IMG/VR virus record: IMGVR_UViG_3300045999_010033
Coordinates: 1 to 64,000 of that record
Length of the DNA: 64,000 bases
Source of the DNA: a virus
Reading direction: 5' to 3' (one strand)
This document shows, piece by piece, positions 2,217 through 49,780 of this stretch. The position numbers and the translations under genes were made by a program. Every line of letters begins with the position of its first letter. Positions within the stretch are counted from its first letter, which is position 1. Under the pieces are notes generated by a model. The model saw only the letters and a list, made by a program, of their open reading frames with translations, did no database searches and was not told the origin of the DNA.

Positions 2217-3044
2217 TTATCTTCTTATTCTACCCTTCATCACAAATACTCTGATATCGGAATCATCTTCGGCAATTGTAACTTTGCCGGACACCATTGA
2301 CTTTAATTTAGATTTTACGTTCTTAACGATATTTTTATCAATTATATTATTTCTATCCCGTTCCGCACCCCATATAACATCTATCAATTTTATATCATTT
2401 AATAATAGTTCATCCCAAGAATCAGGATTATCATCAAACCCAAAATTAAATGCATCTGCCAATTCACTTTTATTTTGTTCAGCAAACTTTTCAGCAAGCT
2501 GTATATACCTTTCTACATATTTTCTTAAAATTTCACCACGATTTTTAACATTCTTTTTAGATTTATCTGATGTGTAGTATTTAAATAGTTTAGCTCCGTT
2601 TATATCATCTAAAATAGATTTTAATTTACTATCCTGCTCAAGAAACTCCCACCAATCCAAAAAAACATTACCAATCAATGATGCCCAACGTCTACCCTGT
2701 TCATCTGGTTCGGACATTATATCATCATCGCCTTTAATTAATAAAGTACCCTCCAAATAAAACATAACGCCAGAGTTCCAAATACCGGGTATATCTACTC
2801 GCATAGATGCATTTGGTACGCGGGTCATACAACTTATAGACTTTTTAGTACCCTGAAGTGAGTCCAATTGGTCTAACTTTTTTATACTTGTAATGTGAAA
2901 CGCCCGAACACGTTTACCTTCATTCAATATTTTTGCAATCTTTGGTGTAAATGGAAATTTACGTGAATACGCAAATGTATATGCTTTCGATACCCACTTC
3001 ACATCGGTTACTGTCTCACTCAATAAATCTTTCAGTCTTATCAT
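2217..3044 (-). CDS. hypothetical protein
   Basis: 275-aa ORF on coding strand. Confidence 0.5.
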   Translation of the reverse strand: MIRLKDLLSETVTDVKWVSKAYTFAYSRKFPFTPKIAKILNEGKRVRAFHITSIKKLDQLDSLQGTKKSISCMTRVPNASMRVDIPGIWNSGVMFYLEGTLLIKGDDDIMSEPDEQGRRWASLIGNVFLDWWEFLEQDSKLKSILDDINGAKLFKYYTSDKSKKNVKNRGEILRKYVERYIQLAEKFAEQNKSELADAFNFGFDDNPDSWDELLLNDIKLIDVIWGAERDRNNIIDKNIVKNVKSKLKSMVSGKVTIAEDDSDIRVFVMKGRIRR

Positions 3045-3200
3045 ACAAATAAATATAAGGGGGTTGGGGGAATTAATTCGTCGTTAGGATTACAACATTT
3101 TTTCAAACCGATATATATCGTCTAAACCAATCCATCGGCACAATCACTATCCATCCTCGCCAAAGCAACCATGCCAACACAAGGATACAAATTAAGGCTC

Positions 3201-4235
3201 TCATCGGCGAAACAATTTACGCAATCCGCGGAATATAAGCCCAACCGGAGTAGTGAGGCCCAGAAAACGAATTGCAGTATTTGCAACACCAACCGCACGG
3301 TCCACAATAGTACGACGACCTCCCTCATCAACCGGAGAGGCAGGAGCAGTATCTTCGGCAGCCGGTGGGGTCGTATCCGAAGTAGAATCGGCAGCCCCAA
3401 TGGCGGTCACCACATCGGCACCGGCATTGCCACGTTCGGTTGGTCCACTATCCACTCCCGCAAGACGAGTTTCCTTGCGTACCCTTTGGCGATTCGGGTC
3501 GGGGCCTTGCGCCGGCGGTACTTCCGTAATGGCGGAAACAATCAGGTCGGATTCCCCAACACCTTCGGGTAGTACACCATCAAAGTAGATATCGCCAATA
3601 CGATTAAAATCTACACGTAGGTCGGCAAGACGTTCCGACACACGCTTAACTATTTCGGCAATTCCATTGTAATCAATCCTGCCACCCTCGGCCGGTGGAG
3701 CAATCTTTAATGTGGCGTAGGAGTAATCCGCACCCAATCCCAAATCCGATAACCTCCACCTGTCAGCGGGCCTTTCGGCAGATGGGCTAATAGTCCAATT
3801 TATTTGCTCCAGAATCCCCTTTGGCACCGGACCAGGGTCATCATACGACCAATCCACTTCCGTCACCCCAGCGGTACGGAGAACGAATTCCTGTTGGGCC
3901 GCAAGCCCTTGTAGACCTGAAACATCTACCTTTATGATTGGTACGGCATCACCCATAGGGGCAGCCAGTCCGGATACTGTCTTTACTTCGCCATTGCGGG
4001 TGTACCAATAGTGTGGGTCACCGCCCTCTCGCGCAGCAGAAAGACTCGCGAGTGTTTTCGGGCTAACAAGCAGCCGCCCCGCGCACTCCACAATAATTCC
4101 ATCTGCCTCCAATAGGGGTAGGAGTTCACGTTCCGGCGAAAGACCGATGGCAAGTGGGGTTACTGCCGGAGGATTGGCAGCCACGAGCACTTCATCACCT
4201 ACCCGGCTATACCTTTGTGGATTTTGCCTTATCAT
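3201..4235 (-). CDS. hypothetical protein encoded in GC-rich island
   Basis: 344-aa ORF; local GC visibly far above genome background; Ala/Gly/Pro-rich. Confidence 0.5.
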   Translation of the reverse strand: MIRQNPQRYSRVGDEVLVAANPPAVTPLAIGLSPERELLPLLEADGIIVECAGRLLVSPKTLASLSAAREGGDPHYWYTRNGEVKTVSGLAAPMGDAVPIIKVDVSGLQGLAAQQEFVLRTAGVTEVDWSYDDPGPVPKGILEQINWTISPSAERPADRWRLSDLGLGADYSYATLKIAPPAEGGRIDYNGIAEIVKRVSERLADLRVDFNRIGDIYFDGVLPEGVGESDLIVSAITEVPPAQGPDPNRQRVRKETRLAGVDSGPTERGNAGADVVTAIGAADSTSDTTPPAAEDTAPASPVDEGGRRTIVDRAVGVANTAIRFLGLTTPVGLIFRGLRKLFRR

Positions 4236-4461
4236 TTCTTAACCATTTTAATGTTTCTCGGTAGCGTGCAGTTTCGCCCTTCCGCCCCCACTCACCTGTC
4301 AATACCCTCCTTTGCATGGCTGGATACACACCCATATCAATGGCTTGTAGTATGTATCGGGTTGGGTCTTCTTTTATACGTAATCCGGACGGAATGAACG
4401 TCGCGAGGCCGACCGTGCACCCAAAGCCGTTTGCTATCTTCTTATATTCTTCTTCTCTCAT
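4207..4461 (-). CDS. hypothetical protein (GC-rich island)
   Basis: ORF track; overlaps neighbours by a few codons. Confidence 0.35.
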   Translation of the reverse strand: MREEEYKKIANGFGCTVGLATFIPSGLRIKEDPTRYILQAIDMGVYPAMQRRVLTGEWGRKGETARYRETLKWLRNDKAKSTKV

Positions 4462-4931
4462 CCTTTTAATTTCATTACCACTTCGTTACCACTAATCTTT
4501 GTTACGGCTTTGGGAAACGCCCTTTTGATATACTGTCCATATAGCCGGGTACGGCGGTCATCGGCAATCCACCGTATAGTATCCGGCGCCCCGTCCTTTC
4601 GAATTTCGTCACGTAGTATCGCAACTATCGTAGCCATTACCCGGTATAGTTCACCACGGTTTGTATCTCCATACCTACTCATCTTCGGGTCCCCTGCAGA
4701 AACCGTATCTATTCTGAAATCCACATACCACTCAACCGTATTCTTCACCTTCGATACGGTTTTACGTTTCAAGCTAATCGTCATCGTATATTGCACACCC
4801 GAATCGGTGGTAAACTCCCAATCCTTCATAGTGCCTCCCGAATACACCATATCGTACTCGTATGGTTTGGCCGAACCCTCTCCGGTCTCCCATAGTATTC
4901 TAATTGGTATCAATCCTTTAAGCCGTATCAT
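4458..4931 (-). CDS. hypothetical protein (GC-rich island)
   Basis: 157-aa ORF; moderately GC-rich. Confidence 0.5.
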   Translation of the reverse strand: MIRLKGLIPIRILWETGEGSAKPYEYDMVYSGGTMKDWEFTTDSGVQYTMTISLKRKTVSKVKNTVEWYVDFRIDTVSAGDPKMSRYGDTNRGELYRVMATIVAILRDEIRKDGAPDTIRWIADDRRTRLYGQYIKRAFPKAVTKISGNEVVMKLKG

Positions 4932-5139
4932 CCCTTGCGTTTTCTATAAATATCTTCCTTATAGGTTTTTTACTCCCCAAAAAAATTTTAGCCCGGATGG
5001 GGTGTGAGCCGAAAGGGAATAGAAGCCAAAAACCTTTTGTTTCAAAAAGTGTTTCCATATGGGAAAAAATTACCCGAAATATTTTCACCGATTAGGCCCG
5101 GTTTATATTTATATTTATTTTTCCAGTTACATGAAATTC

Positions 5140-5290
5140 GGTTCAAGTAAATATAAGGGGTGCAAATGAATATAAGTGTTAGATTTATATAAATTAAATA
5201 TAAGGGGTGCAAATGAATATAAGCGGTGCAAATGAATATAAGGGGTGAAAATAAATATAAAAATCGCAAGTGAAAATCGTGGGCATAAGA
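5140..5290. repeat. iteron-like direct repeat array (unit AAATATAAGGGGTGCAAATGAATATAAG, 3 copies plus degenerate copies)
   Basis: 28-nt unit perfectly repeated at about 5148 and 5196, third partial copy at 5224, further GGTGAAAAT/GTGAAAATCG degenerate copies. Confidence 0.7.
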
Positions 5291-5355
5291 ATACCGCCAG
5301 CGTATTATGCCGGCGGTTCATCCCTATATGGGAGCATGTTATATGTAGTAGGATA

Positions 5356-5574
5356 TCACATATCCTTAATCATGTCCAGATACATTTGGTTAAGCTCTCC
5401 AGTATCGGTATAACTATATTGTCGCATCATATCCCTTGCCGTATCCAATGCTTCGGGTTTGGGTGCCGTCTTACCTATGTTATACTCCTTCATCCATTCT
5501 GCTTCGGAAAGGGTGATATCTGGCTCTATCGTTCGCATTATATTTAATTTCGCTTTATTTGTATCCGATTTCAA
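5356..5574 (-). CDS. hypothetical protein
   Basis: ORF track. Confidence 0.4.
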   Translation of the reverse strand: MKSDTNKAKLNIMRTIEPDITLSEAEWMKEYNIGKTAPKPEALDTARDMMRQYSYTDTGELNQMYLDMIKDM

Positions 5575-6214
5575 TTGATTCGAAATTTATTTTGTTTATT
5601 AATATATTACTTCTGATTGCCTGCCTTTTGCATCTATTCCATTCGAAGAGAGAATATGAATAGCCTCTCTTACTTCGTCCAGTTCTTTTGAGGCCGTCCA
5701 TTTTGGCTTTCCGTCCTGCAATCTTTTTATCTTTCTCATTAGAACTACTTCTGCTTCCTTTAGCTTTTTTAGTGCGTAAGTCTCTGTTACCATCTGGCTT
5801 GCCATTTAGTTTATTCTTAATATAGTCCCAGCAAGCTGGTCCGTGCAATGATTCGTTTTGTCGTGCTTCTAATTCATAGGGATTACTTTCATAGTCCGCA
5901 TCAGGGTCGTATTTGGTCAATAGTGGTTGTAATTGGTGTGTCCATTCGTGAATACAAGTGCTTATTAGGTCTGCCACAGTATCGAATGTGTCCCAATAGA
6001 TGTAAATTTCATTATCTACTGGGTCATATTCACCGTGATAATGATAGTCCGAGTCCAAGTCTATGGACTTTTGTATGTACCATTTTGGTAAGTGTTTCTT
6101 TCTTTTGTTTGTTCCGAGTGTACGTCTGCACCAACGCAGGGCCATATTGGCAATACTTACTGCCTTTCGGCGGCCTATTTTATCTATTTTTGTGTTAAGA
6201 TAAATTTTAGGCAT
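5555..6214 (-). CDS. putative zinc metallopeptidase (HExxH, SprT-like)
   Basis: 'CIHEWTHQL' HExxH motif; basic C-terminal tail. Confidence 0.5.
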   Translation of the reverse strand: MPKIYLNTKIDKIGRRKAVSIANMALRWCRRTLGTNKRKKHLPKWYIQKSIDLDSDYHYHGEYDPVDNEIYIYWDTFDTVADLISTCIHEWTHQLQPLLTKYDPDADYESNPYELEARQNESLHGPACWDYIKNKLNGKPDGNRDLRTKKAKGSRSSSNEKDKKIAGRKAKMDGLKRTGRSKRGYSYSLFEWNRCKRQAIRSNILINKINFESIEIGYK

Positions 6215-7237: not shown

Positions 7238-7483
7238 TTAGTCAGATTCGAACTGCATAGCAACGCCCGCCCAATACTGATGCCCTTCCGGTGTTTTGGC
7301 CCATGTGAACGATTCATTGATAAACGAATAGAACGAATTAAAATCACGATTTAAGTATTCCGATATGATATGGGGTTGGCCATAATCATCCGGCTTTGAC
7401 GATTCCGTTTCACTCAATCGTTTCAGAAACAATACTTGCAGTTTATATGGTATCATCTTCAACCATTCTAGTCCTTTCTTCAT
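7238..7483 (-). CDS. TPEGHxYW-family small protein (paralog 1 of 7)
   Basis: Shares WL..LPYKLQVLFLK...GF.W..TPEGH.YW with six tandem neighbours. Confidence 0.55.
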   Translation of the reverse strand: MKKGLEWLKMIPYKLQVLFLKRLSETESSKPDDYGQPHIISEYLNRDFNSFYSFINESFTWAKTPEGHQYWAGVAMQFESD

Positions 7484-7492
7484 ATCTTATAT

Positions 7493-7720
7493 TTATTTAT
7501 ATCTTTCATTCGCGATAAGACTCCAATAATCATGCCCTTCAGCTGTATCTGACCATGTAAACCCTCCACATATAAAATCATGAAACTCTGTAAATTCATA
7601 ATTTAAATATCCAGCGATGCTTTCCAGTCCGATGTACTTCCCGCATTCGGACAATCGTTTCAGAAACAATACTTGCAGTTTATATGGCATTGTTGCCAAC
7701 CATTCTACTCCGGTTTTCAT
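7493..7720 (-). CDS. TPEGHxYW-family small protein (paralog 2)
   Basis: Paralogy. Confidence 0.55.
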   Translation of the reverse strand: MKTGVEWLATMPYKLQVLFLKRLSECGKYIGLESIAGYLNYEFTEFHDFICGGFTWSDTAEGHDYWSLIANERYK

Positions 7721-7941
7721 ATCAATTGCGCATTATATATCTTATTCCAATATTCGTGTCCTTCCGGTGTATCACGCCATACAAACCCGGCATCTATAAA
7801 AGATTCAAACGTGTCAAAATCATAAGATAGAAAGGTAGCTATAGTCCCTTTATCTTTTGGTCGTTTGTGATTAACCCGATTCTTACAAAATAGGATTTGG
7901 TCCTCTTTACTTAATTTACCCAGCCATTCTACCGCTTTCAT
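7717..7941 (-). CDS. TPEGHxYW-family small protein (paralog 3)
   Basis: Paralogy. Confidence 0.55.
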   Translation of the reverse strand: MKAVEWLGKLSKEDQILFCKNRVNHKRPKDKGTIATFLSYDFDTFESFIDAGFVWRDTPEGHEYWNKIYNAQLI

Positions 7942-7950
7942 ATCTTATAT

Positions 7951-8190
7951 TTATTTATCTTTATGTGCAATCGTATCCCAATAATCGTGCCCTTCGGGGG
8001 TATCTTCCCACATAAATGCATGGTCAATAAACTGACTAAACGAATCATATTCAAGAATCAGATATTGCGCGATTGTCAATCCGCGCTTTGTAACCTCTCC
8101 ACGATTTCTGTGGTTTACTCTATTCTTACAAAATAGGATTTGGTCTTCTTTACTTAATTTACTCAGCCATTCTACTCCTAGCTTTCTCAT
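7951..8190 (-). CDS. TPEGHxYW-family small protein (paralog 4)
   Basis: Paralogy. Confidence 0.55.
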   Translation of the reverse strand: MRKLGVEWLSKLSKEDQILFCKNRVNHRNRGEVTKRGLTIAQYLILEYDSFSQFIDHAFMWEDTPEGHDYWDTIAHKDK

Positions 8191-8409
8191 AATATATGTT
8201 TTTATACTTTAATTAATATCCACATTGTATTGTCAAAGTCCATTGCCGATTGAACCAACCGTAAGATAATATAATCGCTTTAGTATAAACACCAGTTTCC
8301 AAAAAATGGTCTGAATGATATACAAGCTGAATATACGGAAGGATGTGCCATTCATCTCGCTTCCACACCGGCCGGCGGTAACGGCTGAAGCTTATTATAA
8401 TACCATTTT

Positions 8410-8622
8410 TCATATTCTAAAGATTTCGGCAATATCAAACCAATAATCGCCTCCTTCCGGCGTTGACTCCCAAATGAAATTTCCACTAACAAATTCGCTT
8501 ACATTATCAAATTCGGATGAAAGAATATCGGATATAGTTTTTCCTTGTGAAGCACAGTTCTTCAAAAATTGAACTTGGACTTTATACGATAGCATCTTTA
8601 AACAATCTATACCTTTTATCAT
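8410..8622 (-). CDS. TPEGHxYW-family small protein (paralog 5)
   Basis: Paralogy. Confidence 0.55.
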   Translation of the reverse strand: MIKGIDCLKMLSYKVQVQFLKNCASQGKTISDILSSEFDNVSEFVSGNFIWESTPEGGDYWFDIAEIFRI

Positions 8623-8626
8623 TTTA

Positions 8627-8848
8627 TTAACTATTTAATTTTTGATATTTGCTATGCATTCTAACCCAATATAGATGTCCTTCCGGTGTATCATTCCATC
8701 CGAATCCAGCAATTATAAAATGCGCCACATCATCAAACCCATATAGCAATTTATCCGATATATTGATATCTTGATTGGCCATATTTTTTAATATCTGAAC
8801 TTGCATCTTATATGGTAACTGCAGCAAACAATCTATTCCCTTCATCAT
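8627..8848 (-). CDS. TPEGHxYW-family small protein (paralog 6)
   Basis: Paralogy. Confidence 0.55.
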   Translation of the reverse strand: MMKGIDCLLQLPYKMQVQILKNMANQDINISDKLLYGFDDVAHFIIAGFGWNDTPEGHLYWVRMHSKYQKLNS

Positions 8849-9099
8849 TATATTCGGTATTTTGATAGTATATCACTCCAATATTGTCGGCCTTCGGGTG
8901 TGCTATTCCAAACGAATCCACGCTTCATAAAGACTTCAAAACTTCGACATTTACTTTGCAAAAAGAAAGAAATGGATCCGACATTATCAAGATTTTTTAA
9001 ATACTTAACCTGTACCGCATATGGTAATTTATTCAGATAATATAATCCGTTTTTCATTTTATATTCATTTTGCAGTCGGAGCGGGACTCGAACCCGCAA
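8848..9099 (-). CDS. TPEGHxYW-family small protein (paralog 7)
   Basis: Paralogy; N-terminus may overlap the tRNA-like element. Confidence 0.45.
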   Translation of the reverse strand: MRVRVPLRLQNEYKMKNGLYYLNKLPYAVQVKYLKNLDNVGSISFFLQSKCRSFEVFMKRGFVWNSTPEGRQYWSDILSKYRI

Positions 9100-10622: not shown

Positions 10623-11210
10623 TTACTCACTATCCGAGTACATAACTTTAGATTCCTTACGGTCGGACTTCGGGCCCAATTCAACATCGGCCAATTCAGC
10701 GGATGCCATTATATCGGCAGTTCCCCGCACTACATCACGCATACCAACGGGAGCGTGTCCTTTGCCGGCGATTGCTTTCACTTCACTAACCAGCTTATCT
10801 GCTTTACGAATGAAGTCACGGGCGGTTTCATCTGAAATAAACATACGCGGTTTATCAACACCCGGTCCAGTCACTTCATACAATTCATAGAAGTCCTTAC
10901 CACCAATATCCGCCGGCAAGTTCAATTCACGAACTACCTTTGTGATTTTGTAACCACGCGGAAGGCGAGAACTTACTGCTTTGGCCGTCGGCTTCTTAAC
11001 CGCCGGCTTTTTAGTGGCCGGCTTTTTAGTAGCAGCCTTTTTAGTTGCCGGTTTCTTAGCCGTAGCATTTTTAGTGGCCGCCTTCTTAGCCGCCGGCTTG
11101 ACCGCCTTCTTCGTAGCAGCCTTTTTAGTGGCCGTCTTTTTGGCCGCAGGTTTGGTAGCCTTCTTTGTAGCGGGCTTTTTAGTAGTCGTTTTTTTCACTG
11201 CTTTACTCAT
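10623..11210 (-). CDS. histone H1-like Lys/Ala-rich DNA-binding protein
   Basis: N-terminal 80 aa of (K)KPA(A/T)KKA repeats; encoded by tandem 15-nt DNA repeats at 10980-11200. Confidence 0.6.
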   Translation of the reverse strand: MSKAVKKTTTKKPATKKATKPAAKKTATKKAATKKAVKPAAKKAATKNATAKKPATKKAATKKPATKKPAVKKPTAKAVSSRLPRGYKITKVVRELNLPADIGGKDFYELYEVTGPGVDKPRMFISDETARDFIRKADKLVSEVKAIAGKGHAPVGMRDVVRGTADIMASAELADVELGPKSDRKESKVMYSDSE

Positions 11211-12264: not shown

Positions 12265-12283
12265 ATGTTTTTATTTTTATTTG

Positions 12284-12376
12284 TAGTCAGGACAGGATTC
12301 GAACCTGTACAAAGTTATTTACTATTACCTTTGCCAGCTCGGATGCTGGTGTGTCTACCTATTTCACCACCTGACC
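12284..12376 (-). tRNA. class-II tRNA-like element (acceptor GGTCAGG/CCTGACT, D-arm, long V-arm, T-arm ACAGG-TTCGAAT-CCTGT; anticodon loop non-canonical 6 or 8 nt)
   Basis: Manual fold; one of three related copies (also 51344 and 52019). Confidence 0.5.
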
Positions 12377-14421: not shown

Positions 14422-14429
14422 ATCACCAC

Positions 14430-14570
14430 CTCATTTGGGGATACTCCCCAAAGTTAAGGCTTATTTTTCATACTACAATGGGCTTTTTGATAAAAGTTTT
14501 CGAAATTTTTCGGGGTTTTGTTAGAAATTATCTAATGCCCCTTGATAATCAACGGCTTATGCTTCCCTGA
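14430..14570 (-). promoter_or_regulatory. conserved upstream repeat copy A (TAACTTTG -7-like element, GTTAGAAATTATCTAA and TTGATAATCAACG palindromes)
   Basis: About 130 nt conserved with 32505-32662 and 48945-49100, each immediately upstream of a minus-strand gene start. Confidence 0.6.
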
Positions 14571-14988
14571 ATATCAATGACTTACAAGGTTTTTTATAAC
14601 CAATTGATCCTCAATCTCTTATGTATGGTATCCATATAGTATAGATAAAGTATTCAATATCAACGCTTTGCGATTTTTGTTAGATATTTTCTAACTCAAC
14701 ACGATGTTTCATTGAATATTTTCTAACATTATATCCAAATCATTAAATATTTTCTAAACGGCCCATCCATTCACTTCGGCCGGTATGTATTCCTTTATAT
14801 TCATTTTGTGGCATGGCCTTATATTCATTTTTCATGTGAGGCAATCCCTTATATTTATTTTTTTTCAGCGATGGCGACGTGGGTGGGATTTTGGCTACAT
14901 ATCCCCTATCCTTTGATACCATAATTGTTTTATCTACGATTATGGAATATCACATTCGTTTTGATAGAGATGATTCGTTTTAACATGG

Positions 14989-42769: not shown

Positions 42770-42828
42770 ACAACACGTTTTTACATTGTTACAAAGTTTT
42801 AAATTTTACATAATACAAATACTAATAG

Positions 42829-42910
42829 TACCCCGAATCGGACTCGAACCGATACGCCTTTCGGCACCGCATCCTAAGTGCGGCGTGACTGCCAATTCCA
42901 CCACCAGGGC
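42829..42910 (-). tRNA. tRNA-Leu(TAG)
   Basis: Manual fold: AC stem CCGCA/TGCGG, loop CTTAGGA, long V-arm, T-arm ATCGG-TTCGAGT-CCGAT. Confidence 0.7.
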
Positions 42911-43006
42911 AATTAAGCGGAGAGTGATGGTAACGATCCATCTTGAGTTTTACCCCAGCCTCGGTTTAGCAAACCGGCCCCTTACCTTTCGGGCAACTCT
43001 CCATTG

Positions 43007-43087
43007 TACCTCGAATCGGACTCGAACCGATACGTCTTTCGACACTTGATTTTGAGTCAAGCATGTCTACCATTCCATCACCAAGGC
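43007..43087 (-). tRNA. tRNA-Leu(CAA)
   Basis: AC stem CTTGA/TCAAG, loop CTCAAAA, long V-arm. Confidence 0.7.
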
Positions 43088-43198
43088 GAATCCTGCTCTT
43101 TTATCTACAACTTAATGTAGTCGAACATCCAACACTATAACATACGTTTTATAGTTGCTACCATTGGAGGCAGGCAGAATTGAATCTATGTTCACTGC

Positions 43199-43357
43199 TG
43201 ACAGGGTTGGATTCGAACCAACAAACCGAGATTCAGTAACGAGCACATAGTGCTGCAGCATTGTGGTCAACCCATACTCATTACCTATTTCTATATCGGC
43301 GACTGCGAGACGAGCAGCTGTGTTTGCCAAGATATTACATCGTTTCACCACCTGTCA
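43199..43357 (-). ncRNA. 159-nt tRNA-like gene with large internal insertion (acceptor TGACAGG/CCTGTCA, T-arm GTTGG-TTCGAAT-CCAAC)
   Basis: 3' half canonical; only complementary 5' acceptor strand lies 159 nt upstream, exactly 7 nt after tRNA-Ser 3' end. Confidence 0.4.
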
Positions 43358-43364
43358 ATCTATG

Positions 43365-43447
43365 CGGAGAGGAAGGGAATCGAACCCCCAAGGCTTTTAC
43401 ACCCGACTGTTTTCAAGACAGCGTCCTCGTCCATTCGGACCCTCTCC
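43365..43447 (-). tRNA. tRNA-Ser(TGA)
   Basis: Acceptor GGAGAGG/CCTCTCC, AC loop CTTGAAA, long V-arm. Confidence 0.7.
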
Positions 43448-43455
43448 ATTATAAG

Positions 43456-43528
43456 AGCGGAAGGCCGGGTACGATCCGGCAACCTCAGCCTTGGCAAGGC
43501 TGCGCTCTACCAATTGAGCTACTTCCGC
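43456..43528 (-). tRNA. tRNA-Gly(GCC)
   Basis: Acceptor GCGGAAG/CTTCCGC, D-arm AGCTCAATTGGTAGAGC, AC loop TTGCCAA. Confidence 0.75.
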
Positions 43529-43742
43529 AGTTTCCCCACCTTGAGATTACAGATGAGTAGTTATTTCGGTTTTCTATTTCTTAAAACCCGCGAGGCATCC
43601 CTCATTAAAACAGCCAACACTACTGGGAGAGATTGTGTCAGTCTCTTTATCCCACGATGTCTCACTCTAGCCGCAGACATTCTGCTAACCTATTGTTAAA
43701 TGAGTCTTAGGTCAAAGACTACTGAGTATCTCTTACTCATTG

Positions 43743-43814
43743 AGCGAGAAGTCGGAATCGAACCGACATATCCAGCTTGGAAGGCTGGAGTAATAACCGT
43801 TATACTATTCTCGC
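43743..43814 (-). tRNA. tRNA-Gly(TCC)
   Basis: Acceptor GCGAGAA/TTCTCGC, AC loop CTTCCAA. Confidence 0.75.
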
Positions 43815-43820
43815 AGTTAG

Positions 43821-43894
43821 TGGAGATGGAGGGATTCGAACCCCCGACTTTTAGAATGCAAATCTAACGCTCTAGCCAACTGAGCTACATCCCC
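43821..43894 (-). tRNA. tRNA-Ala(TGC)
   Basis: Acceptor GGGGATG/CATCTCC, AC loop TTTGCAT. Confidence 0.75.
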
Positions 43895-43933
43895 ATTGAT
43901 TATCGTTCTATGGACGTTTTTAATTTTTAATTA

Positions 43934-44323
43934 TTATAATACTTTTTCTGATTTTAGTTTTGTTTCAAATTTGTCAAATCGGGAATCAATATAAGAACGA
44001 TTTTCATCAATTCTTTTATGAATTTCCGGCTCAACCTGATCATGAACATTTTTCTGAAATTCATCAATACGTTTATGGATTTCACCCGAAACTGAATCAA
44101 TATCGCGATGTACATCAGGTAGTATGTGTTCATACACATCCCTTTTAAATTCATTGAGTTCTCTATTTGTATTTTCAAACATTGAATGCGTGTTTGAATA
44201 CACATCATCGAATCTCTTAACGTGCTTACTTACCATTATATTTGCCCTCACGATGCCGATAACCATACCAATTAGTATGACTGTAGCTATCCCAAGAACA
44301 TAGGCAATATACATTTGTTCCAT
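43934..44323 (-). CDS. membrane-anchored protein with internal repeats (start trimmed to MEQMYIAY)
   Basis: Listed ORF extends N-terminally over a tRNA-like gene; TM helix then repeated 'IHKRIDE/HRDIDS' units. Confidence 0.5.
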   Translation of the reverse strand: MEQMYIAYVLGIATVILIGMVIGIVRANIMVSKHVKRFDDVYSNTHSMFENTNRELNEFKRDVYEHILPDVHRDIDSVSGEIHKRIDEFQKNVHDQVEPEIHKRIDENRSYIDSRFDKFETKLKSEKVL

Positions 44324-44360
44324 AGTTTGTTTTCTCCTATATGTCAAAGAACGATAATCG

Positions 44361-44471
44361 TGCCCCAGGCGGGGGTCGAACCCGCACTCGCTTTCAGCGA
44401 ACAAGATTAACGCCGCGACGTGTTGAAGCTTGCGTTAAGTCTTGCATGTCTACCTATTCCATCACCAGGGC
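44361..44471 (-). tRNA. tRNA-Leu(TAA)-like gene with 26-nt insertion in the anticodon loop
   Basis: Acceptor, D-arm, AC stem CAAGA/TCTTG, V-arm TCGC-TGAAA-GCGA and T-arm all fold; loop is 33 nt CTTAA[..]AA with internal 7-bp hairpin TTAACGC/GCGTTAA. Confidence 0.5.
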
Positions 44472-44526
44472 CCATACCTACCTTAATAGGTATGTTTGTC
44501 TATAATGTAAATATAGTAAAAGTTTT

Positions 44527-45594
44527 TTAATTATCCAAATCTTTCCGAAAAGGTTTTGCGTATTTAGGGCGAATACATTTCCATATAATAGAATCGTAAT
44601 CCCTCCCATCTAACATAGAAAATAATATTGATGCATGATTATAACGGATTGCTTTGATTGCAAACTCTTTTCTGCTCAAATTTTCACTACGAATGATTGA
44701 GAATATTTCCAAATAATCACGTTTAATATTTTCAAATCTAACTACCAAGTCTTTTACGGTATCCTTTACCCACGTATCAAATTCGTCCGGCACTCTTTCC
44801 AATAACTCATTCAAATCACCACCGGTCCGCAACAATTCCCAGATATCTACATTCGAAACATTGGTGATTATCTTATGAAGTCTTACATACTCTTCACCTT
44901 TGATTTTCATTCTCTTCCCACCTTTGAAACGTATTACATAACCTTCGGCATCATTTGAAATCATATCCTTCAACTTAGTGAAGTCAGTAACACCATTGTA
45001 CTTTCTAACAACTCTTACATCGGTAAAAAGTGCTACTGATTTAGTCAAAGTTTCAAATTCAATTTCGTCCAAAGTATCTCTATCATATGCACCCAACAAT
45101 ACCAAACCCTCAAATGGGTAGCGGCAGACTATCCGATTCTCATCATATATGATTTCAAAAAGGTAAGTCCAATTTTTTCTCAATCCAGTTGTAGGATAGT
45201 TTTTCAATATAGATAATCCCTTCAACATTTCAGTTGCCTTAACGGCTTGCTCTGAAACGAATGAACCTCTCGTTGCTACTATCCAATCTCCGTTATAGTA
45301 AAATGCAATTCCTAAAGAACCGTCCATCTTTTCAAAGACTTCAAATGATTCGTTTGGAATTTCACTATTGGATAATTCTTCCATATTGAAAAATTTTGGA
45401 AATGGTTTGGCTACCACAGTGCCTTCATTATCCAAAACCAATCCACGGCAATCCAATGTAACTGCATCCCACAATCGGTCGTATTGGCACGTTCTGCTGT
45501 AATTGTAGATTGATAAAGGTAACGTTGGATGGTCTTGCTTAACTATCAATCCTCGTCCGATATAATCGTTCAATATGTTTAATGGATATTTCAT
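44527..45594 (-). CDS. RNA ligase family protein (KxDG; Rnl2/DRB0094-like)
   Basis: 'FEKMDGSLGIAFY' motif I; 355 aa; upstream of Pnk-like kinase. Confidence 0.6.
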   Translation of the reverse strand: MKYPLNILNDYIGRGLIVKQDHPTLPLSIYNYSRTCQYDRLWDAVTLDCRGLVLDNEGTVVAKPFPKFFNMEELSNSEIPNESFEVFEKMDGSLGIAFYYNGDWIVATRGSFVSEQAVKATEMLKGLSILKNYPTTGLRKNWTYLFEIIYDENRIVCRYPFEGLVLLGAYDRDTLDEIEFETLTKSVALFTDVRVVRKYNGVTDFTKLKDMISNDAEGYVIRFKGGKRMKIKGEEYVRLHKIITNVSNVDIWELLRTGGDLNELLERVPDEFDTWVKDTVKDLVVRFENIKRDYLEIFSIIRSENLSRKEFAIKAIRYNHASILFSMLDGRDYDSIIWKCIRPKYAKPFRKDLDN

Positions 45595-45995
45595 AATTTT
45601 ACACTAAAACGTTTCCGCATTTTTTCCAAAGTCTCATCCGGTACACCATGTACGGATTTATTACCATGTCTATTTTCTACAATCAATGATACAACGGTGT
45701 ATCCATAGCTCTTTGCTAACTTCAAATATGGTTCAAGTTCCCTTTCGGTAGTTGCCGTATTGGATACTACAATCTCTTGTCCATACTGAGTCGTTTCACT
45801 CATTTGCATCAATTCCTCAACACGCTTTTGACAATCCAAATGGGCTTCATGCAATTTCGAAGCGTCAAAATTGTAGTTACCGTTTGAATCGTAAAAGTAT
45901 TGGTCTGCCTCAAACACATTATTTGAAAACATATATTTAGCAAATGAGCTTTTACCACTACCGGGTAAACCACGTAATATGATTAATGTTTTCAT
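45591..45995 (-). CDS. polynucleotide 5'-kinase (T4 Pnk kinase-domain-like)
   Basis: 'MKTLIILRGLPGSGKSSFA' closely resembles T4 Pnk N-terminus 'MKKIILTIGCPGSGKSTWA'; 134 aa. Confidence 0.65.
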   Translation of the reverse strand: MKTLIILRGLPGSGKSSFAKYMFSNNVFEADQYFYDSNGNYNFDASKLHEAHLDCQKRVEELMQMSETTQYGQEIVVSNTATTERELEPYLKLAKSYGYTVVSLIVENRHGNKSVHGVPDETLEKMRKRFSVKL

Positions 45996-46009
45996 ATGCT
46001 CTTTTTATA

Positions 46010-46348
46010 TTATTGTATAGATAAAAGATAAGTTTTTAATTTTTTCAAAACAACTTCGATGTTAAATGCTATTCGATATGGTCGTTTTAAACGGTGTTCA
46101 TCTATATTAATGTAAGTCACACGATGCCATCCCATAGCAAATAGCTGATATGTTCCATCGGAAAGGGGAGTTTTATATAAGATAACTTCCACAATCGGTC
46201 CGAAGGAGTTATTCTGTGCGTATGGTATATTTCTAAACCTAAATGCATAGCTAGGTCTACCTGCTACAAGCACTTCACCTACACTTTCTATTACGTGCCC
46301 ATCGCACTCCATTCCAACTGCCCTATCAATATTTTTTATGATTAACAT
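46010..46348 (-). CDS. hypothetical protein (paralog pair D, member 1)
   Basis: ML.IKNIDR..GM.C.G...YQLFAMGW..V. Confidence 0.5.
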   Translation of the reverse strand: MLIIKNIDRAVGMECDGHVIESVGEVLVAGRPSYAFRFRNIPYAQNNSFGPIVEVILYKTPLSDGTYQLFAMGWHRVTYINIDEHRLKRPYRIAFNIEVVLKKLKTYLLSIQ

Positions 46349-46357
46349 TTGTGAAAT

Positions 46358-46687
46358 TTATTTGTGTGATTCAATCCAATGTTGTAACTTCTTCAATACA
46401 GTTTTAATTCTACCAGCCAAACAATGGGCATGACGTATGTCGGATTCATCAACGTAAATAAACGTTACTTTCTGCCATCCCATAGCAAATAGTTGATACT
46501 TTCCATCAGAATTAGGAACTCTCTCCAATACAACTTCAACGATTGGACCACGAAGGCTACTCTGAACCCAAGGTATATCAAATTTAAATGTGTATCTAGT
46601 TTTGGATGCGTTTTGTCCAGCATCCATTACATCAATCCCATTACAAAACATTCCGATAATCCTATCAATATTTTTTATAACTAGCAT
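46358..46687 (-). CDS. hypothetical protein (paralog pair D, member 2)
   Basis: Paralogy. Confidence 0.5.
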   Translation of the reverse strand: MLVIKNIDRIIGMFCNGIDVMDAGQNASKTRYTFKFDIPWVQSSLRGPIVEVVLERVPNSDGKYQLFAMGWQKVTFIYVDESDIRHAHCLAGRIKTVLKKLQHWIESHK

Positions 46688-46703
46688 TTTTGCAATTTAT
46701 TTA

Positions 46704-46886
46704 TCAGATGTACTTACTAATATCTTCTTTCTCAATCTCCACTATCGAGTCATCAAGGATTTCTTTGTTATCGTGTCCGACTACAATGGCGGTATAGAAC
46801 TTGCCATCCAGTTCATAGACTTGATAAGCTGAGTCTTTTACCCATTCCCCTTCTCCAATTAAGGTTGCTTTATCTAGGTTTATCAT
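46704..46886 (-). CDS. hypothetical protein
   Basis: ORF track. Confidence 0.4.
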   Translation of the reverse strand: MINLDKATLIGEGEWVKDSAYQVYELDGKFYTAIVVGHDNKEILDDSIVEIEKEDISKYI

Positions 46887-47278
46887 TGTTTTTGTTTTAC
46901 TATTTCAATGAGTTTACGGAGACAAGCAAGTTCTGCTTCTTCTTGTCCATCAAAACTCCCAACCCAAATAGATTCATCTTTATTTTCATCTTGAATCCAT
47001 ATTTCGTACACCTTAGAAAAGGTATCAGGCATTTCAATTACTACTGATTTTCTATACCTAACAAAACTAATAAATAGCCCATAGTTCTTACGAAAGAATC
47101 TGAATGACTGTGAAAATGTTGGACTGAGAGTTATACCATCGCCTTGTCTATCAAAAGACTTTGAATAAAACTTTTTGTTTAGGAAATGTGCAAAACACGG
47201 TTCATCAAACCCAAGTTGCTTCAACTCAAACGCATCTTTGAATGGGATAAAATCTTTCATTGTTTTTGTTTTAGTCAA
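46883..47278 (-). CDS. hypothetical protein (paralog of 40162..40530)
   Basis: Paralogy. Confidence 0.5.
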   Translation of the reverse strand: MTKTKTMKDFIPFKDAFELKQLGFDEPCFAHFLNKKFYSKSFDRQGDGITLSPTFSQSFRFFRKNYGLFISFVRYRKSVVIEMPDTFSKVYEIWIQDENKDESIWVGSFDGQEEAELACLRKLIEIVKQKQ

Positions 47279-47449
47279 TTAAATTTAAAATCGCTACATA
47301 AAGAGCGTAAACGATAACACATAAAACTAAAATCACAATAATCATCATCGTTTCATACGGATATGTTTTTTCACTAATAAGCAATAACCCAAACACTAAT
47401 AATACCAAAAATGTGTAAAATGCTGCTTTAAGTTTCTTTTTCATAACTT

Positions 47450-48112
47450 TTATTTATATTTTTCTACTGATTCATGATGGTCGAAACTCATTAGGCTTTT
47501 GATTGGTTGCCTTCTCATACGGGTAGCAATTTCACTTACCGAAATCGGCCTCAAACCATTACCGTCCACACCAACATCCATCATTTTACCTGGTCCAATT
47601 CTACTAGCCATAGGTAAATGAACGTGTCCATGCAAATGAATTGCACCATTGGCCATTTGGTCCCAACTGGCAATAGGAAAGTGCATCAGTACAAACAATT
47701 CACTACTAACAAGCGGAGTACCCACATTCCGTTTTACAGTTAAATGTAAGTATTTGTTTACGGAACTGAAATGTGATTGACATCCTTCTTTGTTTCTCTC
47801 AATATGATGGTCGTGGTTTCCGGTGATGATGTGAATGTTCTTACATACGATACGATTACGGAAGGCTTCGATTTGCTCAAACCCACCAAAACTCCAATCG
47901 CCCAAATGAAAAAGAATATCATCTTGTCCGACTTCGGCGTTGATGTTATTCACCAATGTATCGTTCATTTCATCCAATGATTTGAAATCTCTACACGTCA
48001 CCGGGTCTTTCCATTGTGTTGTAGTGGAACAGATGTTGGCGTGATTGTAGTGTGTATCAGATGTGAACCACAATTGTTGACCTTTATTTAAACTTATTTT
48101 CATTTGTTTCAT
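47450..48112 (-). CDS. calcineurin-like metallophosphoesterase
   Basis: 'FTSDTHYNH', 'GDWSFGG', 'GNHDHH' motifs. Confidence 0.6.
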   Translation of the reverse strand: MKQMKISLNKGQQLWFTSDTHYNHANICSTTTQWKDPVTCRDFKSLDEMNDTLVNNINAEVGQDDILFHLGDWSFGGFEQIEAFRNRIVCKNIHIITGNHDHHIERNKEGCQSHFSSVNKYLHLTVKRNVGTPLVSSELFVLMHFPIASWDQMANGAIHLHGHVHLPMASRIGPGKMMDVGVDGNGLRPISVSEIATRMRRQPIKSLMSFDHHESVEKYK

Positions 48113-48296
48113 CTTTTAATACAATGATTTCTTTTACTTTCACCGGCCAAATAGGCATCCTATCAATCGTTACCTGCATATGCCCATGTAACGGATTCAC
48201 TCCGCACGATTGGCAGATACCAGTGATTCTTTGACCGGGCCACTTTGGATGGAGTACACTAATACGTTTACCAACCAAATTCAAATCGTTTCTCAT
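48084..48296 (-). CDS. hypothetical protein
   Basis: ORF track. Confidence 0.4.
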   Translation of the reverse strand: MRNDLNLVGKRISVLHPKWPGQRITGICQSCGVNPLHGHMQVTIDRMPIWPVKVKEIIVLKDETNENKFK

Positions 48297-48306
48297 AATA
48301 ATGTGT

Positions 48307-48960
48307 TTATCGCTCTTTAAGTTCTAATGAATCTAAGCTGAAGGGGCAGTACAGCAAAGTTGGATTCTTTTTCTGAATATCAACATTAGGATACTTCTTT
48401 TTGAACTCTATAACATCAAATCTATTAGTAATAAGATGAAATCCATTTTTAGTTGGAATTTCCGCAATACATTTATATCCTTCCGGTCTTAATACGTTGA
48501 TAAATGCCCGGATATCTTCTCTAACAATTTCATCCTTTGTATCAATATCGATAATCCAACGCTTCTCATAAGTTTTCAGTTGCCCAACAACCGAATCAAA
48601 TAAGTTGTTTTGAACGAACTGACCATCTTTGAGTCTTTGTGCCAAAGCCATCATCATATCCAATGAAACATCTTTATGATTTTGTTTCTGAATATGGATG
48701 TAGGCACGTGCTTTAAACATCTCACAAAGTTGGATTATTTCATCATAACGTTTTTCCAAATATTGAATACTGGAAACGCAATATGTTTTTATTGTACGAA
48801 CCGATTGGTGATTATCCCTTTCACCTTCGGGCTGGTCCTTCTTTCTTTTGAAGATATACAACATATAAAAGTCACCCTCGTTATCGAAGTTCAGCAAAGG
48901 TTTGATTAATTCGATATTGTTTATCATACTATACGATTTTTTAGACATAGTGGGTCTCAT
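48307..48960 (-). CDS. hypothetical protein (likely start at MSKKS)
   Basis: N-terminal codons in promoter repeat copy C. Confidence 0.5.
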   Translation of the reverse strand: MRPTMSKKSYSMINNIELIKPLLNFDNEGDFYMLYIFKRKKDQPEGERDNHQSVRTIKTYCVSSIQYLEKRYDEIIQLCEMFKARAYIHIQKQNHKDVSLDMMMALAQRLKDGQFVQNNLFDSVVGQLKTYEKRWIIDIDTKDEIVREDIRAFINVLRPEGYKCIAEIPTKNGFHLITNRFDVIEFKKKYPNVDIQKKNPTLLYCPFSLDSLELKER

Positions 48961-49100
48961 TGTGTATTACTACACAAAGTTAGGGCATTCTGTGCTAATA
49001 AACAAACCTATTTGTTGAATTTTTTCTAAATTTTTGAGGACTTTGTTAGAAAAAATCTAATAGTCATTGATTATCAACGAGTTATAACTCATTGATATTC
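48945..49100 (-). promoter_or_regulatory. conserved upstream repeat copy C
   Basis: See copy A. Confidence 0.6.
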
Positions 49101-49145
49101 TATGAATTATAACGTCTATTGATAATCAATGACTTACGTGGAGAA

Positions 49146-49604: not shown

Positions 49605-49656
49605 GCGCTTTTTGTTTTGATTAAAAATATGCCATCATTGTGACATTTATATTGAG

Positions 49657-49731
49657 TTGGGTGTGCCAGATTCGAACTGGCGATTTCTTGCTCCCAAAGC
49701 AAGCGCGATAACCGGACTACGCTAACACCCA
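49657..49731 (-). tRNA. tRNA-Pro(TGG)
   Basis: AC stem CTTGC/GCAAG loop TTTGGGA; T-arm GCCAG-TTCGAAT-CTGGC. Confidence 0.7.
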
Positions 49732-49780
49732 GTGTTTAAGTATTAAATATAAGTATTTTTTTGGATTAAACCAAAACTGA

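What the first reader, a model, noticed from the sequence alone, without database searches (positions are those of the whole stretch)
3120..4950. 1.8-kb GC-rich island inside an AT-rich genome
Local GC rises to well above 50% against about one-third elsewhere, from visual inspection. The island spans three minus-strand ORFs of 344, 84 and 157 aa with Ala/Gly/Pro/Arg-rich products and no recognisable motifs. The boundaries are sharp on both sides. The island lies immediately upstream of the iteron-like repeat array at 5140-5290. This suggests recent horizontal acquisition from a high-GC donor, or a compositionally distinct functional element.
Basis: seen in the sequence. Interest (0 to 1): 0.6.

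Follow-up and report, generated by a model that had tools for sequence, protein, structure and literature searches.

The report
Old GC-rich gene in AT-rich phage
The GC-rich island is real, but it is not a recent foreign insert: it is a conserved three-gene phage operon whose largest gene has kept an unusually GC-rich, arginine/alanine-rich coding sequence for a long time, in every known relative.

Summary
Window 3120-4950 is 50.7% GC in a 37.5% GC phage genome and is the global maximum (z about 3.8).

The island has two tiers. The 344-aa gene (3201-4235, minus strand) is 54% GC. The 84-aa and 157-aa genes are 46% GC.

Recent transfer from a high-GC donor is rejected:
- The 84-aa/344-aa pair sits in the same syntenic slot in 57 related metagenomic phage loci.
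- Eleven orthologues from AT-rich genomes share the same gene-bounded GC excess, although their synonymous sites are saturated against each other.
- The excess lies mainly at codon positions 1 and 2 (0.67/0.51 against 0.45/0.33). GC3 is only 0.44.
- No donor was found.

The 344-aa protein belongs to an uncharacterised family of at least 122 clusters. It is absent from Pfam, PHROGs and NCBIfam, and a confident AlphaFold model has no PDB match.

The family gene is the local GC maximum in 36 of 46 loci. The window's clade is the extreme. It results from one ancestral shift towards GC-rich-codon amino acids (Lys to Arg, Ile to Val and similar) that now seems to be decaying slowly.

No embedded RNA or overlapping gene explains the composition. 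The cause of the shift and the protein's function remain unknown. Interest is moderate.

The parts
3201..4235 (-). 344-aa gene, the GC peak of the island (54.1% GC; GC1 0.67, GC2 0.51, GC3 0.44). It belongs to an uncharacterised phage protein family. The product has a confident alpha/beta core (residues 1-270), a disordered Ala/Gly/Thr/Pro linker and two C-terminal helices.
   Evidence: ORF. Composition. Homologues. Purifying selection (dN/dS 0.13-0.2). AlphaFold model with pLDDT 82.7. No fold match.
3312..3425 (-). Codons 271-308 of the 344-aa gene. They encode a variable, low-confidence Ala/Gly/Thr/Pro-rich linker and coincide with the highest local GC (0.58-0.61).
   Evidence: Alignment. 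pLDDT below 50 for residues 274-308. 100-nt GC profile.
3207..3308 (-). Codons 310-343, encoding two C-terminal helices. The last one is a cationic amphipathic helix (net charge +5, hydrophobic moment 0.74) that is conserved in the window's subclade only.
   Evidence: Secondary structure. Hydrophobic moment against shuffles. Alignment.
4207..4461 (-). 84-aa partner gene (46% GC). Its last 29 nt overlap the start of the 344-aa gene. It lies immediately upstream of the family gene in 45 of 57 loci.
   Evidence: Raised synonymous conservation over the overlap. No family match.
4458..4931 (-). 157-aa gene (46% GC), a single diverged DUF6934-like domain. Copy number varies among relatives: three fused repeats in L001 and L015, two genes in L010 and L017, none in L007 and L004.
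   Evidence: Weak Pfam hit (E = 0.049). 41% identity to the L001 421-aa protein. L015 438-aa protein matches DUF6934 at E = 1.6e-22 with 3 stretches. Gene tables.
5140..5276 (-). Array of 19-nt-spaced repeats (coding-strand core CCCTTATATTYATTTG, 5-6 copies) at the head of the operon. It is a neighbouring feature, not part of the GC island.
   Evidence: 9 matches in the window against 0.3 expected. Same array at the head of the operon in L010, L017 and L070. Absent from more distant GC-type relatives.
5293..5317 (-). Intrinsic-terminator-like hairpin (9-bp stem, 7 G-C pairs, T-rich tail). It ends the upstream 72-aa gene and so marks the 5' limit of the transcription unit that contains the island.
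   Evidence: Sequence.
3046..3061 (-). Single exact copy of the repeat motif, 2 nt before the ATG (3044) of the next, AT-rich 275-aa gene. Together with the 3045-3200 spacer it marks the 3' limit of the island.
   Evidence: Same arrangement in L010, L012, L017 and L070.

Best explanation
SHOWN
- The island is the coding sequence of a three-gene minus-strand operon: a DUF6934-like 157-aa gene, an 84-aa gene and a 344-aa gene. The operon starts after an intrinsic terminator and a 19-nt repeat array.
- The GC peak is the 344-aa gene. With its overlapping 84-aa partner it forms a two-gene module conserved in one syntenic slot across a large group of AT-rich phages. These are uncultured, mostly freshwater and probably infect Bacteroidia.
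- The gene is under purifying selection.
- Its GC excess is bounded by the gene and sits mainly at codon positions 1 and 2. It reflects a Gly/Ala/Arg/Pro-rich, Lys-poor protein.
- The same excess is inherited by all eleven sequenced members of one monophyletic clade, whose synonymous sites are saturated against each other. The excess is therefore old and vertically transmitted.
- Across the wider family the gene is usually the most GC-rich large ORF in its neighbourhood, at both nonsynonymous and synonymous positions.

INFERRED
- A persistent, gene-specific GC-favouring bias acts on this family. It could be expression or mRNA-level selection, or a recombination-associated fixation bias.
- In the ancestor of the window's clade this bias intensified in place. 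It drove about 90 directional amino-acid replacements (Lys to Arg/Glu/Ala, Ile to Val, Asn to Asp/Gly).
- That amino-acid-level excess is now slowly relaxing towards AT. Synonymous GC stays at its own raised equilibrium of about 0.45-0.5.

FUNCTION (low confidence)
The 344-aa protein probably works as a complex with its translationally coupled 84-aa partner. In the window's subclade it may be tethered to a membrane or a polyanionic surface by a cationic amphipathic C-terminal helix.
For: Composition and codon positions.

Conserved synteny and the two-gene module.

The same gene-bounded GC pattern in L001, L007, L009, L010, L012, L015, L016, L017, L014 and L070.

Selection and age: dN/dS is 0.13-0.2 and dS exceeds 1 among GC-type orthologues.

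Family size and composition:
- 122 clusters, of which only 13 are Gly/Ala/Arg/Pro-rich.
- Those 13 form one clade on a long stem.

Directional replacements: 88 raise GC at positions 1-2 and 23 lower it. Lys falls from 7.1% to 1.8% and Arg rises from 3.5% to 8.7%.

Family-wide GC excess:
- The gene is GC-richer than its flanks in 52 of 52 IMG/VR loci.
- It is the top ORF of at least 150 aa in 36 of 46 loci, with median z of 2.9 for GC, 2.5 for GC1+2 and 1.95 for GC3.

Synonymous sites: GC at fourfold sites is 0.47 against 0.33 +/- 0.08.

Recent flux:
- Positions 1+2: 30 towards AT against 16 towards GC, and 15 against 5 in the L012/L070 pair.
- Position 3: 8 against 11, implying an equilibrium GC3 near 0.59 against the current 0.51.

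Nearest AT-type relatives: P0015 and P0012 are the positional orthologues.

No donor found.

Operon limits.
Against: - The in-place origin of the shift is not demonstrated. The pattern of GC1/GC2 being much higher than expected while GC3 is nearly normal, with AT-ward flux at nonsynonymous sites, is also what an ancient import from a very GC-rich genome would leave behind.
- The tree is neighbour-joining on a compositionally heterogeneous alignment. It does not place the AT-type positional orthologues as sister to the GC-type clade.
- The polarised counts are small and rest on parsimony. Parsimony can inflate apparent GC-to-AT changes in GC-rich sequence.
- No mechanism for a gene-targeted GC bias is established in phages.
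- Expression level is unknown.
- The functional statement rests only on gene overlap and a sequence-derived amphipathic helix. That helix is absent in some clade members.
Confidence: 0.45

Rival explanations
1. Ancient allele replacement. In the ancestor of the clade, the resident 84-aa/344-aa module (perhaps with the DUF6934 gene) was replaced by a homologous copy that had evolved in a phage with a very GC-rich genome. Synonymous sites have since ameliorated almost fully. The constrained positions 1 and 2 retain the donor's amino-acid composition and are decaying slowly.
For: - GC1 of 0.67 and GC2 of 0.51 match or exceed what genomes of at least 65% GC show, while GC3 is only 0.44.
- The replacements are the classic set produced by genome-wide GC pressure.
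- There is net AT-ward flux at positions 1+2.
- The clade sits on a long stem branch and does not group with the positional AT-type orthologues in the neighbour-joining tree.
- The upstream small ORF is shifted as well.
Against: - No family member from a GC-rich genome was found. All eleven GC-type copies with sequenced context lie in 34-43% GC DNA.
- The only other Gly/Ala/Arg/Pro-rich subfamily is equally remote from the GC-type and AT-type members.
- The genome scan found only a Bacteroidia-binned phage contig.
- The wider family shows a graded, near-continuous GC excess of +2 to +13 points. That suggests an intrinsic tendency, not a single foreign episode.
- Position 3 shows no remaining decay.
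Confidence: 0.3
2. Ongoing selection on the protein or its expression. The Gly/Ala/Arg/Pro-rich, Lys-poor composition is itself adaptive, for example for a disordered linker, for avoiding lysine-targeting host modification, or for cheap residues in an abundant protein. Alternatively, high GC is selected for mRNA stability or translation of a very highly expressed gene.
For: - The gene is the local GC maximum family-wide, at synonymous sites as well.
- GC3 is stationary at a raised level.
- Lys is depleted about four-fold.
- A multi-copy regulatory array heads the operon in the window's subclade.
- Codon adaptation of abundant phage proteins is a known phenomenon (PMC2266997, seen in the listing; not read in full).
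Against: - Enrichment includes Arg, Trp and Pro, not only cheap GNN-codon residues, and runs through the folded core.
- Nonsynonymous flux is AT-ward, so the composition is not being held at steady state.
- AT-type orthologues keep the same fold-defining residues with ordinary composition.
- The 84-aa partner is not Lys-poor.
- The repeat array is missing in other GC-type relatives.
- No expression data are available.
Confidence: 0.15
3. Recent horizontal acquisition of a 1.8-kb cassette from a high-GC donor.
For: The region has atypical GC with a sharp 3' boundary.
Against: - The module is present in the same slot in all relatives.
- Orthologues with saturated synonymous divergence share the anomaly.
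- GC3 and fourfold-site GC are only 0.44 and 0.47.
- No integrase, tRNA target or flanking direct repeats are present.
- No donor was found.
Confidence: 0.02
4. The GC-richness reflects an embedded non-protein element, such as a structured RNA, a DNA site or a second overlapping or antisense gene.
For: Long antisense ORFs of 133, 111 and 165 aa exist.
Against: - There is no Rfam match at E <= 1.
- The longest alternative-frame ORF (128 aa) equals the codon-shuffled expectation of 127 +/- 32 and is not conserved in L001, L009 or L014.
- Synonymous-site conservation is flat. The exceptions are the 29-nt overlap with the 84-aa gene and a short bump at codons 126-137.
Confidence: 0.03

Closest known systems
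Ameliorating horizontally transferred genes (Lawrence and Ochman model; cited from my own knowledge)
   Same: A gene-bounded compositional anomaly. The third codon position is closest to the resident genome's composition, and the constrained positions 1 and 2 are still deviant and drift towards AT.
   Different: There is no donor, no patchy distribution and no mobility signature. The event, if it happened, predates a clade whose members are saturated at synonymous sites. GC3 appears stationary above background, not still decaying. The whole protein family tends to be the local GC maximum.
Locally GC-driven genes at recombination hot spots (GC-biased gene conversion, for example mouse Fxy in the pseudoautosomal region; bacterial gBGC proposals; cited from my own knowledge; related discussion in PMC6867656, listed and not read in full)
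   Same: A single gene is driven GC-ward at all codon positions, including many conservative amino-acid replacements, while its neighbours stay AT-rich.
   Different: No recombination or double-strand-break hot spot has been shown here. Biased gene conversion has not been demonstrated in phages. Present-day nonsynonymous flux is AT-ward.
Codon or GC adaptation of highly expressed phage genes (Lucks et al. 2008, PMC2266997, listed and not read in full)
   Same: The gene stands out from the genome in synonymous GC, and it does so consistently across relatives.
   Different: The main excess is nonsynonymous. The protein is not a recognisable structural protein, since it has no fold match. Its expression level is unknown.
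Pfam DUF6934 (for the 157-aa ORF only)
   Same: The ORF is homologous to proteins in relatives that pass the Pfam threshold: L015 at 80.5 bits and L001 at 29.3 bits, against a cut-off of 27.
   Different: The window's copy scores only 14.1 bits on its own. It is a single domain, whereas relatives carry two or three. The family has no known function, and no paper in the searched library mentions it.

Membership tests
Recently acquired genomic island from a high-GC donor | Composition deviates from the host genome | tested here: met
   50.7% GC against 37.5%. It is the global maximum among 1.8-kb windows.
Recently acquired genomic island from a high-GC donor | Synonymous (third-position) composition carries the donor signature and is the most deviant position | tested here: not met
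   GC3 is 0.44 and fourfold-site GC is 0.47. Eight of 44 nearby genes have equal or higher GC3. The excess is at positions 1 and 2.
Recently acquired genomic island from a high-GC donor | Present or absent patchily among close relatives | tested here: not met
   The 84-aa/344-aa module is in the same slot in all relatives examined. The small ORF is adjacent in 45 of 57 loci. Only the 157-aa DUF6934 gene is variable.
Recently acquired genomic island from a high-GC donor | Identifiable donor-lineage homologues, or mobility genes or target-site repeats at the borders | tested here: not met
   There are no GC-genome homologues. There is no integrase, tRNA or flanking direct repeat at the island's edges.
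Anciently transferred, ameliorating gene | GC3 near the recipient's level while GC1 and GC2 remain deviant, with net decay towards recipient composition | tested here: inconclusive
   The pattern of codon positions fits. AT-ward flux at positions 1+2 is 30 against 16 and 15 against 5. Position 3 is balanced, and the counts are small.
Anciently transferred, ameliorating gene | Gene tree incongruent with the genome tree, or a donor clade identified | tested here: inconclusive
   The neighbour-joining tree does not pair the clade with its positional AT-type orthologues, but it is vulnerable to compositional bias. No donor was found.
Known protein family for the 344-aa product (Pfam, PHROGs, NCBIfam, PDB) | Significant profile or fold match | tested here: not met
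Pfam DUF6934 (157-aa ORF) | Score at or above the gathering threshold (27 bits) | tested here: inconclusive
   The window ORF scores 14.1 bits. Its homologues in L001 (41% identity) and L015 score 29.3 and 80.5 bits.
Structured RNA or overlapping gene hidden in the island | Rfam match, conserved alternative-frame ORF, or a local drop in synonymous variation | tested here: not met
Highly expressed phage gene with adapted codon usage | Direct evidence of high expression, or codon usage matching known abundant genes | not testable with these tools
   No transcriptome or proteome is available and no recognisable capsid or tail genes are in the held sequence. The only indirect evidence is raised synonymous GC.

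The most novel reading that the evidence does not exclude
A long-lived GC-favouring force acts specifically on this one gene family in large AT-rich phages. It could be biased gene conversion at a recombination or double-strand-break hot spot, or selection on the mRNA. It makes the gene the local GC maximum across the whole lineage. In one clade it rewrote about a third of the protein's residues towards GC-rich codons without changing the fold. This would be a first documented case of a gene-targeted GC drive in a virus of bacteria, acting on a protein with a previously unseen fold.
Probability: 0.2. Interest if true: 0.7.

Novelty: new variant of a known kind. Interest (0 to 1): 0.4.

Why it matters
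Atypical GC is routinely read as evidence of recent horizontal transfer. This case shows a sharp, gene-bounded GC island that is old, vertically inherited and mostly encoded at the amino-acid level. It is a caution for island-calling in phage genomes.

It also marks out an abundant, uncharacterised two-gene module. The module spans at least 122 protein clusters, has no match among solved structures, and is conserved across many large uncultured phages. Its consistent status as the local GC maximum hints at unusual expression, recombination or selection.

If a gene-specific GC drive were demonstrated, it would bear on the long-standing debate over what sets base composition in microbial and viral genomes.

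Tried and rejected
Searches that found nothing:
- GenBank phages gave no hit for the 9-kb region (megablast), for the 344-aa protein, or for two AT-type family members (tblastn).
- Pfam, PHROGs and NCBIfam gave nothing for the three island proteins, for 72 family members or for the conserved neighbours.
- PDB sequence-profile searches found nothing.
- The AFDB50 library was not available.
- The first structure prediction, from 12 sequences, was too poor to use (pLDDT 46). It was rerun with 72 sequences.

Hypotheses rejected:
- Embedded RNA.
- Conserved antisense or alternative-frame gene.
- Synonymous-site constraint.
- The repeat array as an obligatory partner of the GC-rich gene. It is absent from L001, L007, L009, L015 and L004.
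- A distant Gly/Ala/Arg/Pro-rich subfamily as the donor.
- A cellular or prophage donor in species genomes.
- A shared functional class for the other GC-high genes in the window. One is ferredoxin-like and the rest are unknown.

Dead ends:
- The flanking modules of distant family loci gave no functional clue. They include an intein-bearing unknown protein, a halogenase-like protein, a GDSL lipase and one weak tail-fibre-chaperone hit.
- The literature held nothing on DUF6934.
- A pattern scan with the 72-sequence alignment failed for lack of conserved stretches. It was redone with a 12-sequence alignment.
Full report
**1. Observation**

The window is a 37.5% GC phage genome segment. Almost all its genes are on the minus strand. 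It carries 24 tRNA genes, a tmRNA, NAMPT, PRPP synthetase, RNA and DNA ligases and CobS/CobT-like genes.

The flagged region 3120-4950 is 50.7% GC. Among all 1,831-nt windows it is the maximum, at 0.506. The mean is 0.376, the sd is 0.034, and the next non-overlapping peak is 0.439.

The three minus-strand ORFs of 344, 84 and 157 aa exist as described.

The island is two-tiered. The 344-aa gene (3201-4235) is 54.1% GC, with 100-nt peaks of 0.58-0.61. The 84-aa and 157-aa genes are about 46% GC.

The 3' edge coincides with the stop codon of the 344-aa gene. Only the 344-aa product is truly Gly/Ala/Arg/Pro-rich (0.378, the highest of 113 ORFs, z = 3.6).

**2. Anatomy**

On the coding strand the order is:
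- an intrinsic-terminator hairpin (5317-5293) after the upstream 72-aa gene;
- an array of 5-6 copies of a 19-nt-spaced motif, CCCTTATATTYATTTG (5276-5140);
- the 157-aa gene;
- the 84-aa gene;
- the 344-aa gene, whose start overlaps the 84-aa gene by 29 nt;
- a 156-nt spacer;
- one more copy of the motif, 2 nt before the ATG of the next, AT-rich 275-aa gene.

The island is therefore one operon-like unit.

**3. Not recent, and not patchy**

The 344-aa protein has metagenomic homologues from 100% down to 32% identity. Contexts were fetched for L001, L004, L007, L009, L010, L011, L012, L014, L015, L016, L017 and L070. Where flanks are held, they show collinear synteny: small ORF, family gene, a roughly 280-aa gene, then HSP20, UvdE and peptide deformylase.

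The window and ten further orthologues all sit in 34-43% GC DNA. They all show the same anomaly: gene GC 0.51-0.58, GC1 0.60-0.70, GC2 0.48-0.55 and GC3 0.42-0.52.

The excess is bounded by the genes. Spacers and the next gene fall to 0.28-0.40.

These orthologues are under purifying selection in the annotated frame (dN/dS 0.13-0.2). They are saturated at synonymous sites, with NG86 dS above 1 or undefined. So the anomaly predates their divergence.

The 157-aa gene is the only variable part. It is a single diverged DUF6934 domain. Relatives have none, two separate copies, or two to three fused copies.

**4. Where the GC sits**

Other window genes average GC1/GC2/GC3 of 0.45/0.33/0.34. The 344-aa gene has 0.67/0.51/0.44.

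GC at fourfold-degenerate sites is 0.47, against 0.33 +/- 0.08. That is high, but several other genes match it.

A fresh import from a genome of at least 60% GC would have GC3 near 0.8 or above (general knowledge of codon-position regressions). That is not seen here.

**5. The protein family**

An exhaustive profile search found 122 clusters at 50% identity, 71 of them at E < 1e-30. None of 72 members matches Pfam or PHROGs beyond isolated accessory domains. NCBIfam and PDB profile searches were also empty.

With a 72-sequence alignment, AlphaFold gives a confident model. Mean pLDDT is 82.7 and the core (residues 1-260) is mostly above 90. The model shows:
- an alpha/beta core;
- a disordered Ala/Gly/Thr/Pro linker (about residues 271-308);
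- two C-terminal helices, the last of which is cationic and amphipathic in the window's subclade.

The small ORF lies directly upstream of the family gene in 45 of 57 loci. The overlap region shows raised synonymous conservation. This supports a coupled two-gene module.

**6. The shift is clade-specific but sits on a family-wide trend**

Only 13 representatives are Gly/Ala/Arg/Pro-rich (0.33-0.42). The others are 0.13-0.29. That group includes P0012 and P0015, which occupy the same syntenic slot in L004 and L011. The 13 form one clade on a long stem in a neighbour-joining tree.

Comparing majority residues of AT-type and GC-type members over 260 core columns:
- 88 replacements raise GC at positions 1-2, 23 lower it and 42 are neutral;
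- reciprocal pairs are one-sided, for example Lys to Arg 3:0, Ile to Val 5:1, Lys to Glu 4:0 and Lys to Ala 4:0;
- Lys falls from 7.1% to 1.8%, Arg rises from 3.5% to 8.7%, and Ala rises from 5.3% to 10.4%.

This is the signature of nucleotide-level GC pressure, not of selection for one protein property.

In 52 of 52 wider-family loci from IMG/VR the gene is GC-richer than its flanks, by 7.4 points on average. It is the most GC-rich ORF of at least 150 aa within +/-10 kb in 36 of 46 loci. Median z is 2.9 overall, 2.5 for positions 1+2 and 1.95 for position 3. The window's clade, at +17 to +20 points, is the extreme of a graded distribution.

**7. Maintained or decaying?**

Lineage-specific singleton changes at positions 1+2 within the clade run 30 towards AT and 16 towards GC. 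The deep-branching lineages were excluded from this count.

In the close pair L012/L070 (94.6% nt identity), polarised with the window:
- positions 1+2 give 15 towards AT against 5 towards GC;
- position 3 gives 8 against 11;
- the implied equilibrium GC3 is about 0.59, against a current 0.51.

The numbers are small and parsimony-based. They suggest that the amino-acid-level excess is a slowly relaxing relic, while the moderately raised synonymous GC is stationary.

**8. Alternatives tested**

- No Rfam family matches at E <= 1 in 2800-5600.
- The long antisense ORFs equal the codon-shuffled expectation (128 aa against 127 +/- 32) and are not conserved.
- Synonymous conservation is flat apart from the 29-nt gene overlap and a short bump at codons 126-137.
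- No donor was found. The only other Gly/Ala/Arg/Pro-rich subfamily (P0112, P0113, P0116, P0126, P0127) is equally remote from GC-type and AT-type members.
- A scan of 185,579 species genomes returned only a phage-like contig binned with a Bacteroidia MAG. It is 78% identical and has the same GC pattern.
- The repeat array heads the operon only in the window's subclade (L010, L017, L070) and is missing in other GC-type relatives. It is therefore not tied to the GC-rich gene.

**9. Interpretation**

Shown:
- The island is an old, vertically inherited, gene-bounded compositional anomaly of a conserved operon.
- The anomaly lies mainly at amino-acid-determining positions.
- It is not a recent insert, and it is not a hidden RNA or overlapping gene.

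Inferred, in order of preference:
- (a) An in-place intensification, in one clade's ancestor, of a family-wide gene-specific GC-favouring bias, now relaxing (about 0.45).
- (b) An ancient replacement by an allele that had evolved in a very GC-rich phage, now ameliorated at synonymous sites (about 0.30).
- (c) Ongoing selection on protein composition or expression (about 0.15).

The AT-ward nonsynonymous flux argues against (c). The graded family-wide excess, the stationary GC3 and the absence of any donor favour (a) over (b). The codon-position pattern and the long stem keep (b) alive.

**10. Host and taxonomic context**

The closest cultured relatives are distant:
- Flavobacterium myophage 'immuto' (42% identity on the HD phosphohydrolase);
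- an uncultured 484-kb phage and a Microcystis phage, for the CobT-like gene.

Three lines point to a low-GC Bacteroidia host: the Bacteroidia MAG hit, the immuto hit, and the DUF6934/DUF6169 matches (both families occur in Bacteroidota as far as I recall).

**11. Verdict**

'Recent HGT' is rejected. The island is ordinary in kind (a compositionally atypical gene) but unusual in detail: it is family-wide and ancient, it lies at the amino-acid level, and the protein matches no known fold. Interest is moderate.

Noticed in passing
window 5140-5276 (minus), 3046-3061 (minus), 14792-14861 (plus): A 16-nt motif, CCCTTATATTYATTTG, occurs 9 times against 0.3 expected. There are 5-6 tandem copies at 19-nt spacing at the head of the island's operon, one copy 2 nt before the ATG of the 275-aa gene, and three copies in the opposite orientation inside a roughly 570-nt noncoding gap (14422-14988). 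That gap also holds ATATTTTCTAA repeats. Occurrence in both orientations and the regular spacing suggest binding sites for a phage DNA-binding protein (operator or iteron), not simple promoters. The array is conserved in L010, L017 and L070 only.
   Followed up: partly
window 7238-9099 (minus): Seven tandem paralogous ORFs of about 70-83 aa share the motif GF.W..TPEG..YW. Relatives carry fewer copies (L001 4675-5162). This is a locally expanding small-gene family of unknown function.
   Followed up: no
window 42828-57994 (minus): A dense set of 23 tRNA genes covers nearly all amino acids. A one-piece tmRNA (57661-57994) has the tag peptide GNTYANAEYAVAA. There is also an odd tRNA-like call at 12283-12376 with a two-base anticodon.
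   Followed up: no
window 10623-11210 (minus): A 195-aa protein with 20.5% lysine and a weak histone H1-like (HC2) match. It is 48% GC, one of the other GC-high genes, and is conserved in L001 and L007. It may be a DNA-condensing protein.
   Followed up: partly
window 59095-59733 (minus): The second most GC-rich gene in the window (48.5% GC). It matches PHROG 3704, annotated as ferredoxin and classed as an auxiliary metabolic gene.
   Followed up: partly
L011 3178-5094; L047 12105-14369; L042 13957-16284: A conserved 510-775-aa neighbour of the module carries one or two Hint/intein domains in some relatives and none in others (L004 12180-13712). This indicates intein gain and loss in this phage group. 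The gene appears to be absent from the window.
   Followed up: no
L001 10957-13476; L012 1530-3951: The AT-rich 275-aa gene downstream of the island is present as two or three tandem paralogues in some relatives and once in the window. It has no family match.
   Followed up: no
L007 9422-9780: In the relative that lacks the DUF6934 gene, the 359-nt spacer upstream of the small ORF is 44% GC in a 35% GC genome. It contains 10-nt-spaced GCYTTCCGTAGC repeats. It may be a decayed gene remnant or a different regulatory array.
   Followed up: no
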